NCBI GenBank assembly: GCA_029984035.1
Contig: JASBYJ010000001.1
Location: 213,534 to 277,533, forward strand
Direction: 5' to 3'
DNA from: Conchiformibius sp.
GTDB taxonomy: Bacteria > Pseudomonadota > Gammaproteobacteria > Burkholderiales > Neisseriaceae
Length of the DNA stretch: 64,000 nucleotides
In this document: piece after piece, positions 35,660 through 39,472 of the stretch
How the letters are laid out: every line of letters begins with the position of its first letter
How positions within the stretch are numbered: the first letter of the stretch is position 1
The notes under the pieces: generated by a model
Told to the model about the DNA's origin: nothing
What the model saw: only the letters and a program-made list of their open reading frames with translations
Database searches by the model: none
Translations under genes and position numbers: made by a program

Positions 35660-36508
35660 TTGGAGTTTGTTATTGTGGTTATCGTTCCTTCGATTTCATT
35701 TAAGAAAATATTGGTTGTTTTTATTGCTGCATTTGCTCTTACGGGATGTAACAATGAGGCTAAAGTTTCTAAAGATACTACGACTGCAGTAAAAGCGGAA
35801 AATGTCAGTAAAAAACTTCCTGAAAACGTTCCTGTAATTACTGTAGCCACTCAAGCGGATTATCCGCCGTTTGATTTTTTTGGAGAGAGCGGCAAATTTG
35901 CAGGTTTTGATGTCGATGTCATTAATGCAGTTGCTACCAACCAAGGCATGAGCGTCAATATGATTAATGTTCCGTGGCAGGTGATTTTTACTGGTTTGGA
36001 TAAAAAAGAATACGATGTTGTTATAGGTGCTATGGCACCAACTCCTGAACGTGCGGCGAAATATGCTTTAACTGAAAGTTATGCAAAAGCCCCCAATAGT
36101 GTTGTTGTTCTGGAAGATTCTCCGATTAAACGTTTGTCTGAACTGAATGGAAGAACGGTTGGTTTGTTTCTTGCCGATAATGCCTACAATACTGACAATG
36201 ATTTGAAAGCGAACGGAATTGTCGTTAATCCGAAAGGGCAGTCATCTACTTGGATGCTGTTGAAAGATTTAATGAAAGGTGAAACTGAAGCGGCAATCGT
36301 CGACAGATTGGTGGCCTTATACCATATGAAGAATATTCCTAATCAGAAGTTCCGTTTTATTGAATTACCTTCATTGGTGGAAACAGATATAGTCATGGCT
36401 GCCCGTGATAGAGATTTGGCAGATAAGCTTAATCTCGGACTGGCAAATATCAAAGAGAATGGTACTTATGATGAAATTTATATTAAGTGGTTTGGTGAGA
36501 ATAAATGA
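35660..36508 (+). CDS. Amino-acid ABC transporter substrate-binding lipoprotein (family 3 SBP, ArtJ/HisJ-like), paralog 1 of 3
   Basis: Signal with lipobox (FIAAFALTGC). SBP_bac_3 features (FDFFGESGKFAGFDVDVINAV ... DVVIGAMAPTPER ... NGTYDEIYIKWFG). AT-rich. Confidence 0.8.
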   Translation: MEFVIVVIVPSISFKKILVVFIAAFALTGCNNEAKVSKDTTTAVKAENVSKKLPENVPVITVATQADYPPFDFFGESGKFAGFDVDVINAVATNQGMSVNMINVPWQVIFTGLDKKEYDVVIGAMAPTPERAAKYALTESYAKAPNSVVVLEDSPIKRLSELNGRTVGLFLADNAYNTDNDLKANGIVVNPKGQSSTWMLLKDLMKGETEAAIVDRLVALYHMKNIPNQKFRFIELPSLVETDIVMAARDRDLADKLNLGLANIKENGTYDEIYIKWFGENK

Positions 36509-36677
36509 AGGATGATTGTTGCATAACTTGCGTATTTAGATATAAAAAGCAATTTGGTACGTAAAACTGCATTATCGCATTTACTATTATTTGACATCAG
36601 AGCTTGCCGTATTCATTTATTTATACGTGAATATATCTGTTTCGATAATCCTGGATTTTTTAGATTGGAGCAACTAA

Positions 36678-37550
36678 ATGTTACGTTTTTACAGCTTATT
36701 TTCCATCAAAAGTGTAATAGGCCTTTTTGCCGCAATGCTGGCTTTGTCTGCTTGTAATGATGCCGCTGAACCTGTTGCGCAGCCGTCAGCCCCTGTTTTG
36801 GAAGTGGTCTCTCCAGAGCCTGAGCATCATTCAACGTCTTCTAGTGAGTTTGCAGCCCGATTGCCGCTTGACGCTCCTGTTATTATGGCAGCGACCGAGG
36901 CGAATGGGCCTCCTTTTGAATTCCTGGACAAACAAGGCAAAATTATTGGCTTCGATATTGATATCATCCATGCAATTGCTTCAGATCAAGGTATTCGTGT
37001 TAACGTGATTAATACTAAATGGGATACTATTTTTGTTGGTTTGGACGGCAACGAATATGATATTGTTTTCGGCGGTATGGGTACAACGCCAGAAAGACAG
37101 GCTAAATATGTATTGACCGATAGTTATGTTGAGTCTCCGAGTAGAATTGTTGTTTTGGAAGATTCTCCCATTAAGCAACTTTCCGATTTGAATGGTAAGA
37201 ATATTGGTGTAACGCTTGGTTATGATGCGACAGCTGATTTAAAAGAGCACAAAATTACAGCTACCCAACAAGAATCGGATTCAATTTATGCTCAAGTAAA
37301 AGATTTGGTTTCGGGTAAAACTGATGCGATGATTGCGGATGGGTTGGTTGCAGCATATCATATCAATCACATTCCTGATCAGAAATTCCGTTTTATTGAT
37401 TTTGCAAATGTAACTATTCCCAACGTTGTGATGGCATCACACAATAAGGAATTAGTGGAGAAATTAAACGCTGGTTTGGCAAATATCAAAGCAAACGGTA
37501 CGTATGATGTTATCTATACCAAATGGTTTGGAGAATCTGCTAAAAAGTAA
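36678..37550 (+). CDS. Amino-acid ABC transporter substrate-binding lipoprotein, paralog 2 of 3
   Basis: Lipobox LALSAC. Same motifs (FEFLDKQGKIIGFDIDIIHAI ... DIVFGGMGTTPER ... NGTYDVIYTKWFG). Roughly 45-50% identical to paralog 1 by eye. Confidence 0.8.
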   Translation: MLRFYSLFSIKSVIGLFAAMLALSACNDAAEPVAQPSAPVLEVVSPEPEHHSTSSSEFAARLPLDAPVIMAATEANGPPFEFLDKQGKIIGFDIDIIHAIASDQGIRVNVINTKWDTIFVGLDGNEYDIVFGGMGTTPERQAKYVLTDSYVESPSRIVVLEDSPIKQLSDLNGKNIGVTLGYDATADLKEHKITATQQESDSIYAQVKDLVSGKTDAMIADGLVAAYHINHIPDQKFRFIDFANVTIPNVVMASHNKELVEKLNAGLANIKANGTYDVIYTKWFGESAKK

Positions 37551-37564
37551 TTACATAATTTGAT

Positions 37565-37605
37565 TATGTAATCCTATTTCAGGCAGCCTATATTGGGCTG
37601 CCTGT
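37565..37605 (+). terminator. Terminator hairpin from a DUS-derived inverted repeat (CAGGCAGCCtatattgGGCTGCCTG plus T7) downstream of SBP paralog 2
   Basis: 9 bp stem followed by TTTTTTT. Confidence 0.65.
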
Positions 37606-37869
37606 TTTTTTAAGATATTTGTTAAAGGTAGTGGGCAGTTTATGAAAAGGGGTTGATTGGATAATGTCGGTACTAAGATTATTGCTTAGACTATTTATCA
37701 GGTGATGATAAATATAATATCGATTAAATTTTGATTATCTTTTTGGAGATGAAGTGGAAAAAAAGCAGCAAATTTTACCATTTTTTCAATATTTTAATCT
37801 GTATTTTGAGTGTCCCGAAGTTAAACCTAAACTTACATTCTTTCAAGAGCAAAGGAAGTTTTTTCAGTT

Positions 37870-38400
37870 TATTTCATTATATTTTCTAAGCACTCGCTTT
37901 GCTTGAGTCCAAAAATTTTCAATTCTATTGATATGATTTTCTCTCCCAATAAAAATCTCTGAGTGATTAATGCGTTTGTGATGAAATTCACTGATTTCAA
38001 AAATATCATAATTGCCATAACTGTCCGTACAAACTCAGCGATCAGGTTTTATTTTTTCTCTTAATAGCAGGTAGTAATGTTTAGGCCTCGTATTAACAAC
38101 TACTGTAAATATCTTAATTTGTCGCTTTAATATGCCAAAGCAGCTACTTTGCCGGAGACTTCTTGACCTTGTTTTCCTTTGCGATGTCCTCCAGAATAAC
38201 TCTCATCTAATTCAATTTCCCTTCAAAAATTTCATCTGCTTCAAGTGCTAGATGATAGTCAATCATTTGACGAATTTTGCGGCAAAACGAAATCGCTGAG
38301 TTAGGCTGAGTTCCTAAAATATCTGCTACTGAGCGAGCAGTAACTTCTAATACAAAAAAACGAGTAGTTTTGTATGGATTTCTTTAATTTGCAATTTATT
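37870..38400 (-). mobile_element. Degenerate IS1595-family (IS1016/ISXO2-like) transposase remnant, fragmented by frameshifts and stops
   Basis: Minus-strand translations include ...IEFHHKRINHSEIFIGRENHINRIENFWTQAKRVL... (compare the IS1595 C-terminus VNHSxGEYxxGxxHTNxIESFWxxLKR) and ...ELDESYSGGHRKGKQGQEV... (compare EVDETYIGGKxKNKH). No intact ORF over 60 aa. Confidence 0.5.
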
Positions 38401-38572
38401 ATCTCCATAATACTTCAGATACACATGTTTTTATCTTAGAATAGTTTTTGTGCATCAGTCGGGATTGATGTTACAATTAGAAATCGAGAATTTACTCGAA
38501 AGTTCATCAAGGTTTTTTTATTTCTTCTTAGTAAGAAGTAAGATAATTTGGTTTCATCAATATGTTGAGTAG

Positions 38573-39472
38573 ATGAATAGGTGGTATTTTTATCATTATG
38601 ATTCAGGAGTGCTTGGAATGAGAGTTAATTTTGATCGTGTGCGCGAAAAAGTTTGGATACTGTCTAGTATTTTATTATTAGTGTCCTGTAATCAAAAAGA
38701 TATTACGGCTCCTCCTGAAAGTGTTGTTCCTTCAGAAGAAGTGAAGCAACTTGAGTTTGGTGTGGCTGAAAATGAATTTTCCAAGCATATTTCTGTGGAT
38801 GCGCCACAAATTATGGTTGCTACACAAGCTAATCAACCTCCATTCGAATTTTTGGATAGAGATGGTAAATTCGTAGGATTTGATATTGATATTGTTCATG
38901 CTATCGCAGCAGATCAAGGAATGAGAGTGCATATGGTCAACACTTCGTGGAAGACTATCTTCCTTGGTCTGGATAATAAAGATTATGATATTGTTATCGG
39001 AGGAATGGGGCCTAACGAAGAACGTCAATCTAAATATGCATTGACTGATAGTTATGCGCGAATTCCTAATATTGCGGTAATGCTGGAAACTTCTTCTATC
39101 AATCAATTGTCTGACTTAAATGGCAAGAAGATTAGCGTGTTTGACATAGAAAGTGCAGATCAGGGTTTAAAAGCGCATAAGGTTTCTGCTGGGGCGTTGA
39201 AAGCAACATCTTCTGCTTATATGATGTTGAGGGATGTTGTATCAGGGGAGACAGATGCTGCGATTGCAGATAAGTTTTTGATTTTATATCATGCTAAAAA
39301 TATGCCTGATTACAAGTTCCGTTATATTGAAATTCCCAGCTCTCCTGATAATGAGATAGTTATTATGGCATCTCATGATAGAGAGTTGGCTAAAAAAATG
39401 AATGTGGGTTTGGCAAATATCAAAGAAAATGGCATTTATGATGCCATTATCCAGAAATGGTTCGGGGAATAG
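38573..39472 (+). CDS. Amino-acid ABC transporter substrate-binding lipoprotein, paralog 3 of 3
   Basis: Lipobox LLVSC. Same motifs (FEFLDRDGKFVGFDIDIVHAI ... DIVIGGMGPNEER ... NGIYDAIIQKWFGE). Start may be the internal M at about 38618. Confidence 0.8.
   Translation: MNRWYFYHYDSGVLGMRVNFDRVREKVWILSSILLLVSCNQKDITAPPESVVPSEEVKQLEFGVAENEFSKHISVDAPQIMVATQANQPPFEFLDRDGKFVGFDIDIVHAIAADQGMRVHMVNTSWKTIFLGLDNKDYDIVIGGMGPNEERQSKYALTDSYARIPNIAVMLETSSINQLSDLNGKKISVFDIESADQGLKAHKVSAGALKATSSAYMMLRDVVSGETDAAIADKFLILYHAKNMPDYKFRYIEIPSSPDNEIVIMASHDRELAKKMNVGLANIKENGIYDAIIQKWFGE

What the first reader, a model, noticed from the sequence alone, without database searches (positions are those of the whole stretch)
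35660..39472. Three tandem paralogous amino-acid-binding lipoproteins with an IS1595-family transposase remnant between copies 2 and 3
Three family-3 substrate-binding lipoproteins of about 290 aa share conserved blocks but have diverged to roughly 45-55% identity by eye. Each has its own lipobox signal peptide and its own terminator. None has adjacent permease or ATPase genes, so they are orphan SBPs. The whole 4.5 kb block is AT-rich with almost no DUS. Between copies 2 and 3 lies about 500 bp of frameshifted IS1016/ISXO2-like transposase sequence. An 18-bp tandem direct repeat (TATCAGAAGTGTTTCTT x2, 35620-35656) sits just upstream of copy 1. This suggests acquisition by horizontal transfer and amplification, possibly IS-mediated. 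Orphan tandem SBPs in host-associated Neisseriaceae could serve as chemoreceptor ligands or surface antigens.
Basis: seen in the sequence. Interest (0 to 1): 0.5.

Follow-up and report, generated by a model that had tools for sequence, protein, structure and literature searches.

The report
Three orphan amino-acid-binding lipoprotein paralogues
A low-GC, strain-variable islet in a Simonsiella-like Neisseriaceae genome carries three old, intact copies and one decayed copy of an amino-acid-type binding lipoprotein plus a dead insertion sequence, which is an ordinary kind of feature except that close relatives of these proteins sit inside an undescribed signalling operon.

Summary
Three SBP_bac_3 lipoprotein genes lie at 35675-36508, 36678-37550 and 38618-39472 and are 46-53% identical. 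They sit in a 4.9-kb islet of 35% GC between an S9 peptidase gene and glnA. A dead IS1595-family element lies at 37778-38414 on the minus strand. The repeat is 17 bp x2 (35617-35650), and a related strain has one copy. Copy 1 has no terminator.

Three things are new. A remnant of a fourth paralogue lies at about 39642-39850. The three copies form one clade (99-100% bootstrap), and their duplication is old (dS saturated). Copies 1 and 2 are under purifying selection. IS-driven amplification is therefore not supported. Their GC3 matches a low-GC relative that carries the sister gene, which fits import of the array as a block. A roughly 3.2-kb segment from mid-copy 2 to glnA differs sharply between two strains.

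Function is inferred. The backbone-anchoring Arg and Asp are kept while pocket residues differ, so the copies probably bind different amino acids for an ABC permease encoded elsewhere. No permease or ATPase lies within 64 kb. A rival reading is sensing: in five related Neisseriaceae loci a same-clade protein follows a membrane CheA-like kinase, CheY and usually CheX.

The parts
35306..40231 (.). Low-GC islet (34.9% GC) between the S9 prolyl-oligopeptidase-family gene (33305-35305) and glnA (40232-41650)
   Evidence: Composition profile. GC and GC3 values. Flank identities from NCBIfam and Pfam. One exact DUS in the islet.
35595..35600 (+). Perfect TATAAT, the putative -10 box of the copy 1 promoter (inferred)
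   Evidence: Read from the sequence. The plus-strand scan did not report it because the -35 box is weak. Inference only.
35617..35650 (+). 17-bp tandem duplication TATCAGAAGTGTTTCTT x2 in the presumed 5' UTR of copy 1
   Evidence: Sequence. Related strain L083 has a single unit in an otherwise about 97% identical alignment. No stable RNA structure (z +0.45).
35675..36508 (+). Copy 1: SBP_bac_3 lipoprotein, 277 aa from GTG 35675 (282 aa from TTG 35660), lipobox LTGC
   Evidence: GGAG lies 9 nt upstream of the GTG. Omega 0.28 against L083, based on 6 differences.
36678..37550 (+). Copy 2: SBP_bac_3 lipoprotein, 290 aa, lipobox LSAC
   Evidence: AF2 model with pLDDT 87.9 has an amino-acid-binding-protein fold. 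Omega 0.11 against L083, based on 49 differences.
37580..37604 (+). Intrinsic terminator after copy 2, built from an inverted sim/kingDUS pair
   Evidence: (z -5.7).
37778..38414 (-). Decayed IS1595-family (ISEc69/IS1016-like) element: nearly full-length transposase gene, read across three frames with several stop codons; no recognisable terminal inverted repeats
   Evidence: The left junction with L083 homology is at 37745/37746.
38618..39472 (+). Copy 3: SBP_bac_3 lipoprotein, 284 aa from ATG 38618 (299 aa from ATG 38573), lipobox LVSC
   Evidence: AGGAG lies 8 nt upstream of 38618. Absent from strain L083.
39518..39541 (+). Intrinsic terminator after copy 3, built from a near-DUS inverted repeat
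   Evidence: z -4.3.
39642..39850 (+). Remnant of a fourth paralogue (pseudogene, C-terminal part, '...NIKTTMYTYTVCTKWFSE'). It is orthologous to a longer, roughly 700-bp decayed pseudogene in strain L083.
   Evidence: Repeat family D5. tblastn of copies 1-3. Local alignment to L083 3915-4013 scores 30 against 12 +/- 1.6 for shuffles. Sequences.
37040..40221 (.). Strain-variable mosaic block. Divergence from L083 is 7-14%, then non-homologous, then 18-35%, while the surrounding sequence is below 2% diverged.
   Evidence: SNP density by 200-bp windows. blastn blocks.

Best explanation
The locus is a decaying, strain-variable tandem array of an old, Neisseriaceae-specific subfamily of family-3 (polar-amino-acid-type) substrate-binding lipoproteins. 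It holds three intact genes and one pseudogene remnant. The array probably formed in a low-GC relative that uses the same DUS dialect. It then entered this genome between the S9 peptidase gene and glnA as a block, by transformation and recombination. An IS1595-family element later inserted between copies 2 and 3 and died there.

Inferred mechanism: each protein is exported, lipidated at the lipobox Cys and held on a disordered tether of about 30-45 residues. It closes around an alpha-amino acid or a close derivative, using the conserved Arg (carboxylate) and Asp (amino group). The three copies differ at the side-chain pocket and so recognise different ligands. They most likely deliver these ligands to one shared polar-amino-acid ABC permease encoded elsewhere in the genome. 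That would widen the substrate range of a single transporter, as paralogous binding proteins do in other bacteria.

What is shown: the anatomy, family membership, fold, monophyly, age of the duplication, purifying selection, composition and strain polymorphism. What is inferred: ligand class, lipidation, the transport partner and the direction of transfer.
For: Family and fold:
- SBP_bac_3 at E 1e-34 to 1e-37.
- The best NCBIfam hits are Lys/Arg/Orn, cystine, Gln and Arg binding proteins, all far below the equivalog cut-offs.
- The best PDB sequence hits are AncQR, GlnPQ SBD and ArtJ.
- The AF2 model (pLDDT 87.9) matches open-form GlnPQ SBD1 (TM 0.88) and the gonococcal cystine receptor (TM 0.83).

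Binding pocket:
- The equivalents of GlnBP R75 and D157 are kept in all three copies.
- The F13, K115, T118, G119 and H156 equivalents differ: Y/G/Q, F/T/F, D/Y/E, N/D/S, V/A/A.

Origin and age:
- Monophyly at 99-100% bootstrap.
- Paralogue dS above 2.4 with omega about 0.16. Orthologue omega is 0.11 for copy 2 and 0.28 for copy 1.
- GC3 of 0.30-0.34 equals that of L095, the genome carrying the sister gene P0130.
- The terminators are made of the host DUS dialect.
- Mosaic divergence block and presence/absence of IS plus copy 3 between strains.

Precedent: three lipoprotein SBPs with Lys, Arg and Orn as putative ligands in one transporter system, Moraxella catarrhalis sbp123 (PMC4938438).
Against: - No permease or ATPase lies in 64 kb, and the rest of the genome could not be searched. 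The transport partner is therefore purely inferred.
- The more distant Psychrobacter and Kingella-MAG homologues, and the sister gene P0130, are also lone genes with no adjacent transporter.
- The only conserved genetic linkage found for this clade is to a signalling module, not to a transporter.
- The T70/S72-type hydroxyl that usually helps hold the carboxylate is Gly or Ala in all three copies.
- The pocket mapping uses an E. coli GlnBP sequence recalled from memory. Its numbering is self-consistent, but it was not fetched from a database.
- The direction of the strain difference, and the donor, are unknown.
Confidence: 0.55

Rival explanations
1. Sensory co-receptors. The three lipoproteins bind ligands and dock on the periplasmic domain of the Neisseriaceae membrane CheA-like kinase (Hpt plus HATPase_c), or of another sensor. 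This would feed a CheY/CheX pathway. The array would then be a strain-variable repertoire of sensory inputs rather than transport components.
For: - In five loci from different Neisseriaceae, a same-clade SBP gene lies directly downstream of a kinase and a CheY-like regulator, usually with CheX between (L086-L089, L090, L091, L096, L097).
- The kinase has two TM segments, a periplasmic domain of about 160 aa and a weak PilJ-N hit.
- The kinase family is widespread in Alysiella, Conchiformibius, Wielerella and Kingella, which include the sim/kingDUS group this genome belongs to.
- All family members examined are orphans with respect to transporters.
Against: - No kinase, CheY or CheX homologue lies in the window.
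- The operon-linked proteins form a different sub-branch. Most have lost the carboxylate-binding Arg (TPER changed to AEEGEG), whereas copies 1-3 keep the canonical amino-acid anchors.
- In Alysiella filiformis the module has no SBP at all.
- No experiment links any of these proteins to signalling, and no paper on the module was found.
Confidence: 0.25
2. Surface-exposed lipoprotein antigens or adhesins. The array would be diversifying under host immune pressure, with binding activity secondary.
For: - Lipoboxes followed by long, variable, low-complexity tethers.
- Strain-variable locus with gene decay.
- SBP lipoproteins of Neisseria and Moraxella are reported as surface-accessible vaccine antigens (PMC4938438; PMC5278169, title and abstract).
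- A 39%-identical relative sits next to a TbpB/fHbp-like lipoprotein gene.
Against: - Orthologue comparison shows purifying rather than diversifying selection (omega 0.11 and 0.28).
- The ligand-anchoring residues are conserved.
- Surface exposure cannot be read from the sequence.
Confidence: 0.1
3. Functionless leftovers. The array is horizontally acquired junk in the course of being lost, and the three intact ORFs are not expressed or not needed.
For: - One paralogue is already a pseudogene, and the IS is dead.
- Copy 3 is absent in strain L083.
- The islet is AT-rich and DUS-poor.
Against: - Three ORFs of 277-290 aa stay intact despite saturated dS between them.
- Omega is well below 1 for copies 1 and 2.
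- Good ribosome-binding sites and strong terminators.
Confidence: 0.07

Closest known systems
Moraxella catarrhalis sbp123 (SBP1, SBP2, SBP3)
   Same: Three lipoprotein binding proteins of about 28 kDa in one system of a mucosal bacterium. The paper lists different basic amino acids (Lys, Arg, Orn) as their putative ligands (PMC4938438).
   Different: The paper treats sbp123 as one ABC transporter gene cluster, knocked out as a unit. Here no permease or ATPase lies within 64 kb. Sequence similarity to SBP1-3 was not measured. The nearest Moraxellaceae homologues found (Psychrobacter) are only 26-30% identical.
Polar-amino-acid binding proteins with solved structures (AncQR 4zv1/4zv2, GlnPQ SBD1/2, ArtJ, N. 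gonorrhoeae cystine receptor 2yln/3zsf)
   Same: Same Pfam family, two-lobe fold and conserved Arg/Asp anchors. Sequence identity is 25-35%.
   Different: - Copies 1-3 carry a lipobox and a 30-45-residue tether.
- They have a clade-specific 'NEFAxxLPxxAP' segment before the first strand.
- The T70/S72 position is Gly or Ala, and the side-chain pockets are distinct.
- None reaches any NCBIfam equivalog cut-off.
Paralogous binding proteins sharing one permease (HisJ/ArgT with HisQMP; ArtI/ArtJ with ArtQMP in enterobacteria; established knowledge)
   Same: Duplicated family-3 binding proteins with diverged specificity. This is the model proposed here for how the copies work.
   Different: Those genes lie beside their transporter, are not lipoproteins and are more similar to each other. 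No shared permease has been identified here.
Binding-protein-dependent sensors (LuxP-LuxQ, TorT-TorS, ChvE-VirA, MBP-Tar; established knowledge) and the kinase-CheY-CheX-SBP module seen here in other Neisseriaceae
   Same: A free periplasmic binding protein is encoded next to a membrane sensor kinase. The module's SBP belongs to the same clade as copies 1-3.
   Different: Copies 1-3 are not linked to any sensor in the window and lie on another sub-branch with a canonical amino-acid pocket. The module itself is uncharacterised.
IS1595 family (ISEc69; IS1016 group)
   Same: DDE_Tnp_IS1595 domain, 65.5% DNA identity to ISEc69 over about 640 bp, and 41-51% amino-acid identity over residues 15-214 of 217.
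   Different: No intact ORF, no recognisable terminal inverted repeats or target duplication, and a single copy in the window. It is a fossil, not an active element.

Membership tests
SBP_bac_3 / polar-amino-acid (PAAT-type, class II) substrate-binding proteins | Match to the family profile above the curated threshold | tested here: met
   PF00497 at 118-128 bits against a cut-off of 26.4 for all three copies.
SBP_bac_3 / polar-amino-acid (PAAT-type, class II) substrate-binding proteins | Two alpha/beta lobes joined by a hinge (type II periplasmic binding protein fold) | tested here: met
   AF2 model of copy 2 has pLDDT 87.9. Foldseek probability is 1.00 to amino-acid-binding proteins, with target TM up to 0.88.
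SBP_bac_3 / polar-amino-acid (PAAT-type, class II) substrate-binding proteins | Arg that binds the ligand alpha-carboxylate and Asp that binds the alpha-amino group (GlnBP R75 and D157) | tested here: met
   R126/R140/R136 and D210/D221/D218 align with R75 and D157. The T70 equivalent is A/G/G.
SBP_bac_3 / polar-amino-acid (PAAT-type, class II) substrate-binding proteins | Encoded with, or demonstrably serving, an ABC permease and ATPase | tested here: not met
   No LSGGQ ATPase and no BPD_transp_1 homologue in the 64-kb window. The rest of the genome could not be searched.
SBP_bac_3 / polar-amino-acid (PAAT-type, class II) substrate-binding proteins | Membership of a specific equivalog (ArtJ, GlnH, HisJ, ArgT, cystine SBP) | tested here: not met
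   All NCBIfam scores (44-120 bits) are far below the equivalog or subfamily cut-offs of 256-522 bits.
Bacterial lipoproteins | Signal peptide ending in a lipobox [LVI][ASTVI][GAS]C | tested here: met
   LTGC, LSAC and LVSC follow hydrophobic h-regions. The Pfam LPAM_1 hit for copy 1 is below its cut-off.
Bacterial lipoproteins | Lipidation, and the final location (inner membrane, outer membrane or surface) | not testable with these tools
   Needs palmitate labelling or globomycin treatment, fractionation and protease shaving.
IS1595 family insertion sequence | DDE transposase of the ISXO2/IS1595 type | tested here: met
   PF12762 at E 3e-16 and 60 bits against a cut-off of 27. tblastn to the ISEc69 transposase gives E 8e-29. 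DNA match.
IS1595 family insertion sequence | Intact transposase ORF, terminal inverted repeats and a target-site duplication | tested here: not met
   The gene is read across three frames with several stop codons. No end-to-end inverted repeat was found, and the GGGGCTGTAC-type ends of ISEc69 are absent.
Kinase-CheY-CheX-SBP module of Neisseriaceae (uncharacterised) | The SBP gene lies directly downstream of the Hpt-HATPase_c membrane kinase, response regulator and CheX | tested here: not met
   tblastn of the L086 kinase, regulator and CheX against the window found nothing. The flanking genes are an S9 peptidase and glnA.
Kinase-CheY-CheX-SBP module of Neisseriaceae (uncharacterised) | Same protein clade as the module's SBP | tested here: inconclusive
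   - Copies 1-3 share the NEFAxxLPxxAP motif with the module SBPs and are 35-39% identical to them.
- The profile bit score drops from 313 to 224 outside the group.
- The joint clade has only 52% bootstrap.
Horizontally acquired genomic islet | Composition deviates from the host genome, and the segment varies between strains | tested here: met
   GC3 0.30-0.34 against a median of 0.57. DUS-poor. Presence or absence of IS plus copy 3, and a mosaic divergence block, against L083.
Horizontally acquired genomic islet | Identified donor, integrase, or flanking repeats marking an insertion | tested here: not met
   No integrase was found, and no direct repeats flank the islet. No homologue above 46% identity exists in 1.84 billion representatives.

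The most novel reading that the evidence does not exclude
Copies 1-3 are exchangeable ligand-sensing inputs for the membrane CheA-like kinase, CheY and CheX pathway that is conserved in Alysiella, Conchiformibius, Kingella and commensal Neisseria. In five related loci that pathway has a same-clade lipoprotein encoded in cis. The array would then be a strain-variable sensory repertoire for an undescribed, binding-protein-dependent, chemotaxis-like pathway in non-flagellated Neisseriaceae. That pathway might steer type IV pilus or gliding behaviour.
Probability: 0.15. Interest if true: 0.7.

Novelty: new member of a known kind. Interest (0 to 1): 0.33.

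Why it matters
In itself the locus is ordinary. It is a lineage-specific expansion of amino-acid-type binding lipoproteins in a horizontally acquired, recombining islet. It illustrates how DUS-guided transformation and gene decay reshape accessory loci in commensal Neisseriaceae.

It matters more as a pointer. 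The proteins belong to a small clade seen so far only on contigs carrying Neisseriaceae DUS. That clade has no characterised member and no relative above 46% identity among 1.84 billion representatives. One branch is hard-wired to an uncharacterised membrane CheA-like kinase, CheY and CheX module. If the orphans signal through that module, they would define a new sensory route in a family thought to have very few signalling systems. If they are transport proteins, they are candidates for nutrient specialisation on mucosal surfaces, and they are lipoprotein antigens.

Tried and rejected
- IS-mediated recent amplification: rejected. Paralogue dS is saturated, and the IS is a single fossil that is absent in one strain.
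- Independent origin of the copies: rejected by the trees.
- The 17-bp repeat as a structured RNA or terminator: no structure beyond shuffles. It is a one-against-two copy-number difference between strains.
- Known RNA elements in the islet: Rfam at gathering thresholds found only tRNAs elsewhere in the window.
- First AF2 run with three sequences failed (pLDDT 33). It was repeated with 112 sequences.
- The GTDB representative scan did not return the source genome or any close relative. The best hits were 30-32% identical.
- The species could not be named. Only the DUS dialect was identified: overlapping simDUS/kingDUS dyads, as in Simonsiella muelleri (PMC3630211).
- The paper on M. catarrhalis SBP2 arginine uptake (PMC4730574) is not held.
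- A literature search for the kinase-CheX-SBP module found nothing relevant.
- A search for kinase homologues gave no hit on the 401,614-bp source contig, so it could not show whether this genome has the module.
- A glnA-linked function such as glutamine sensing was considered. The adjacency is not conserved for the sister gene P0130, so it was not pursued.
- Cyclohexadienyl dehydratase and MltF-like roles were considered because of weak hits. They were set aside because the proteins are single-domain lipoproteins with intact amino-acid anchors.

Full report
**1. What is there**

ORF listing and translation show three same-strand genes at 35660/35675-36508, 36678-37550 and 38573/38618-39472.
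- All three match Pfam SBP_bac_3 far above threshold (E 3e-37, 7e-37, 4e-34).
- They are 46-53% identical to one another.
- Each begins with a basic and hydrophobic leader ending in a lipobox (LTGC, LSAC, LVSC). A variable, low-complexity stretch of 30-45 residues follows. The good AF2 model predicts this stretch as disordered.
- Ribosome-binding sites (GGAG or AGGAG, 7-9 nt upstream) favour GTG 35675 and ATG 38618 as the starts of copies 1 and 3. These agree with independent gene calls on a Logan contig identical to the window over the 10 kb compared.

The genes lie between an S9 prolyl-oligopeptidase-family gene (33305-35305) and glnA (40232-41650).

**2.

- The islet 35306-40231 is 34.9% GC against 47.7% for the window.
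- Exact DUS 12-mers number 56 (simDUS) plus 24 (kingDUS) in 64 kb. Only one lies between 35080 and 46520.
- The DUS occur as overlapping sim/king dyads. This arrangement is described for Simonsiella muelleri (PMC3630211), so the host is a Neisseriaceae of that DUS group. The species could not be named.
- Copies 2 and 3 end in strong hairpin terminators made of DUS or near-DUS inverted repeats. The region after copy 1 has none (z +1.3), so 'each has its own terminator' is wrong for copy 1.
- The repeat is 17 bp x2 at 35617-35650. It lies downstream of a perfect TATAAT (35595-35600) and ends 11 nt upstream of the GGAG. A related strain has one unit, and the repeat forms no notable RNA structure.

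**3. The IS**

- The minus strand of 37778-38414 encodes a transposase broken across three reading frames with several stop codons.
- When spliced, it matches DDE_Tnp_IS1595 (E 3e-16).
- It is 65.5% identical in DNA to ISEc69 and covers residues 15-214 of that element's 217-aa transposase.
- No terminal inverted repeats were found, and the window has no second copy.
- It is a nearly full-length fossil of about 640 bp, rather than a 500-bp fragment.

**4. A fourth copy**

Downstream of copy 3, at about 39642-39850, the sequence still reads '...NIKTTMYTYTVCTKWFSE'. This is the family's C-terminal motif.

Locus L083 comes from another sequencing run and is 94-96% identical in the flanks. It has copies 1 and 2 followed directly by a stop-riddled SBP pseudogene of about 700 bp, then glnA. 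The window's remnant aligns to the 3' part of that pseudogene (score 30 against 12 +/- 1.6 for shuffles). The array therefore once had at least four members.

**5. Strain comparison**

- Differences from L083 are below 1% from the peptidase gene to the middle of copy 2.
- They rise to 7-14% up to 37745.
- The sequence is then unalignable: IS plus copy 3 in the window, against the 5' 430 bp of the pseudogene in L083.
- Divergence is 18-35% up to 40221, and below 2% again from the start of glnA.
- Neither state can be derived from the other by a single deletion.
- Import of a divergent block by transformation and recombination is the simplest reading, but its direction is open.

**6. Origin and age**

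A word-indexed search of 5.8 billion clusters found nothing above 39% identity apart from the copies themselves. An exhaustive HMMER scan of 1.84 billion representatives added a few proteins at 40-46% identity.

In neighbour-joining trees with and without these proteins, the three copies form one clade with 99-100% bootstrap.
- Synonymous divergence between the copies is saturated (dS above 2.4) with dN about 0.42. The duplications are old.
- Against L083, copy 2 has omega 0.11 (49 differences) and copy 1 has omega 0.28 (6 differences). This indicates purifying selection.
- GC3 of the copies is 0.30-0.34 against a window median of 0.57. It equals the median GC3 (0.31) of L095, a 40%-GC contig with the same DUS dialect that carries the sister gene P0130.

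Taken together, the array most likely formed in a low-GC relative and was imported as a block. IS-driven amplification in situ is not supported.

**7. What the proteins are**

- NCBIfam places them nearest Lys/Arg/Orn, cystine, Gln and Arg binding proteins, but far below every equivalog cut-off.
- The nearest solved structures by sequence are AncQR, GlnPQ SBDs and ArtJ.
- A 112-sequence AF2 model of copy 2 (pLDDT 87.9) superposes on open-form amino-acid-binding proteins. These include the gonococcal cystine receptor (TM 0.83) and GlnPQ SBD1 (TM 0.88).
- I aligned the copies to E. coli GlnBP. That sequence was recalled from memory, but its numbering reproduces the published binding residues.
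  - All three copies keep the R75 and D157 equivalents.
  - The T70 equivalent is Ala or Gly.
  - The side-chain pocket positions differ among the copies.
- I infer that they bind alpha-amino acids or close derivatives, with different specificities.

**8. Partner**

The 64-kb window contains no ABC ATPase signature, no permease homologue and no other SBP. The more distant Psychrobacter and Kingella-MAG homologues are lone lipoprotein genes. So is the sister gene P0130.

Another branch of the same clade shares the 'NEFAxxLPxxAP' motif, and profile bit scores drop from 313 to 224 outside the group. In all five loci examined from that branch, the gene lies directly downstream of three genes:
- a membrane protein of 708-716 aa with two TM segments, a periplasmic domain, Hpt and HATPase_c;
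- a CheY-like regulator;
- usually CheX.

These loci carry Neisseriaceae DUS, either canonical or sim/king. Homologues of the kinase are common in Alysiella, Conchiformibius, Wielerella, Kingella and some Neisseria, annotated only as 'ATP-binding protein' or 'CheA'. In Alysiella filiformis the module lacks an SBP. Most operon-linked SBPs have lost the carboxylate-binding Arg, unlike copies 1-3. No homologue of the module lies in the window, and no paper on it was found.

**9. Verdict**

The feature is a new, narrow subfamily of a well-known kind of protein, in a horizontally derived, recombining and decaying array.
- My best mechanistic reading (0.55) is that the copies are specificity-diversified amino-acid binding lipoproteins serving a permease encoded elsewhere. 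The M. catarrhalis sbp123 trio is the closest described analogue (PMC4938438).
- The main rival (0.25) is that they are ligand sensors for the CheA-like kinase pathway.
- The decisive data cannot be obtained with the tools available here: the rest of the genome, ligand screens, uptake assays and interaction assays.

Noticed in passing
L086 5018-8834; L087; L088; L089; L090 394-1770; L091 5232-8837; L096 211-4109; L097 1235-4732; L098 6001-9626: There is a conserved, apparently undescribed Neisseriaceae module.
- It consists of a membrane Hpt-HATPase_c (CheA-like, no CheW domain) kinase with a periplasmic domain, a CheY-like regulator and usually CheX.
- In five loci an SBP_bac_3 lipoprotein of the same clade as the window's copies follows it.
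- In Alysiella filiformis a 192-aa unknown protein follows instead.
- Most module-linked SBPs have replaced the carboxylate-binding Arg motif TPER with AEEGEG.
   Followed up: partly
window 39642-39850 and L083 3548-4250: A decayed fourth paralogue. The window keeps only a C-terminal remnant with internal deletions. The related strain keeps about 700 bp, full of stop codons.
   Followed up: yes
window 37040-40221: Divergence from strain L083 jumps from below 1% to 7-35% across this block, with a non-homologous core. It then drops again exactly at the glnA start. This is the signature of a recombination or import tract.
   Followed up: partly
window 35080-46520: The DUS-poor stretch is much longer than the islet. 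It has one exact 12-mer in 11.4 kb, against about one per 1.1 kb elsewhere. It extends through glnA, a rhodanese gene and a histidine kinase gene.
   Followed up: no
window 42938-44209 (-): A 423-aa histidine kinase with a weak PilS-like six-TM domain, HisKA and HATPase_c lies 1.3 kb downstream of glnA.
   Followed up: no
window 2132-2887 (+) and 25544-26773 (+): Two other ORFs have GC3 as low as the SBP genes (0.24 and 0.33, against a median of 0.57). They may be further foreign islets.
   Followed up: no
window 38414-38442 (+): A promoter-like site (TTCAGA-17-TAGAAT) lies at the upstream end of the IS fossil and points towards copy 3. The IS end may contribute to copy 3 expression.
   Followed up: no
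L084 238-2323: The nearest relative found by the word-indexed protein search (P0006, 39% identical to copy 2) sits next to a gene for a TbpB_B_D/FHBP_C-type lipoprotein, on a contig without Neisseriaceae DUS.
   Followed up: no
window 30415-30714 and 41910-41991: There is a cluster of three tRNA genes beside an AT-rich stretch (29250-30250, 33-36% GC). A single tRNA gene lies 260 bp after glnA. Neither borders the islet.
   Followed up: no
whole window, e.g. 186-200: simDUS and kingDUS occur as overlapping dyads (TTCAGGCTGCCTGAA). This arrangement is reported for Simonsiella muelleri and places the host in that DUS group.
   Followed up: partly
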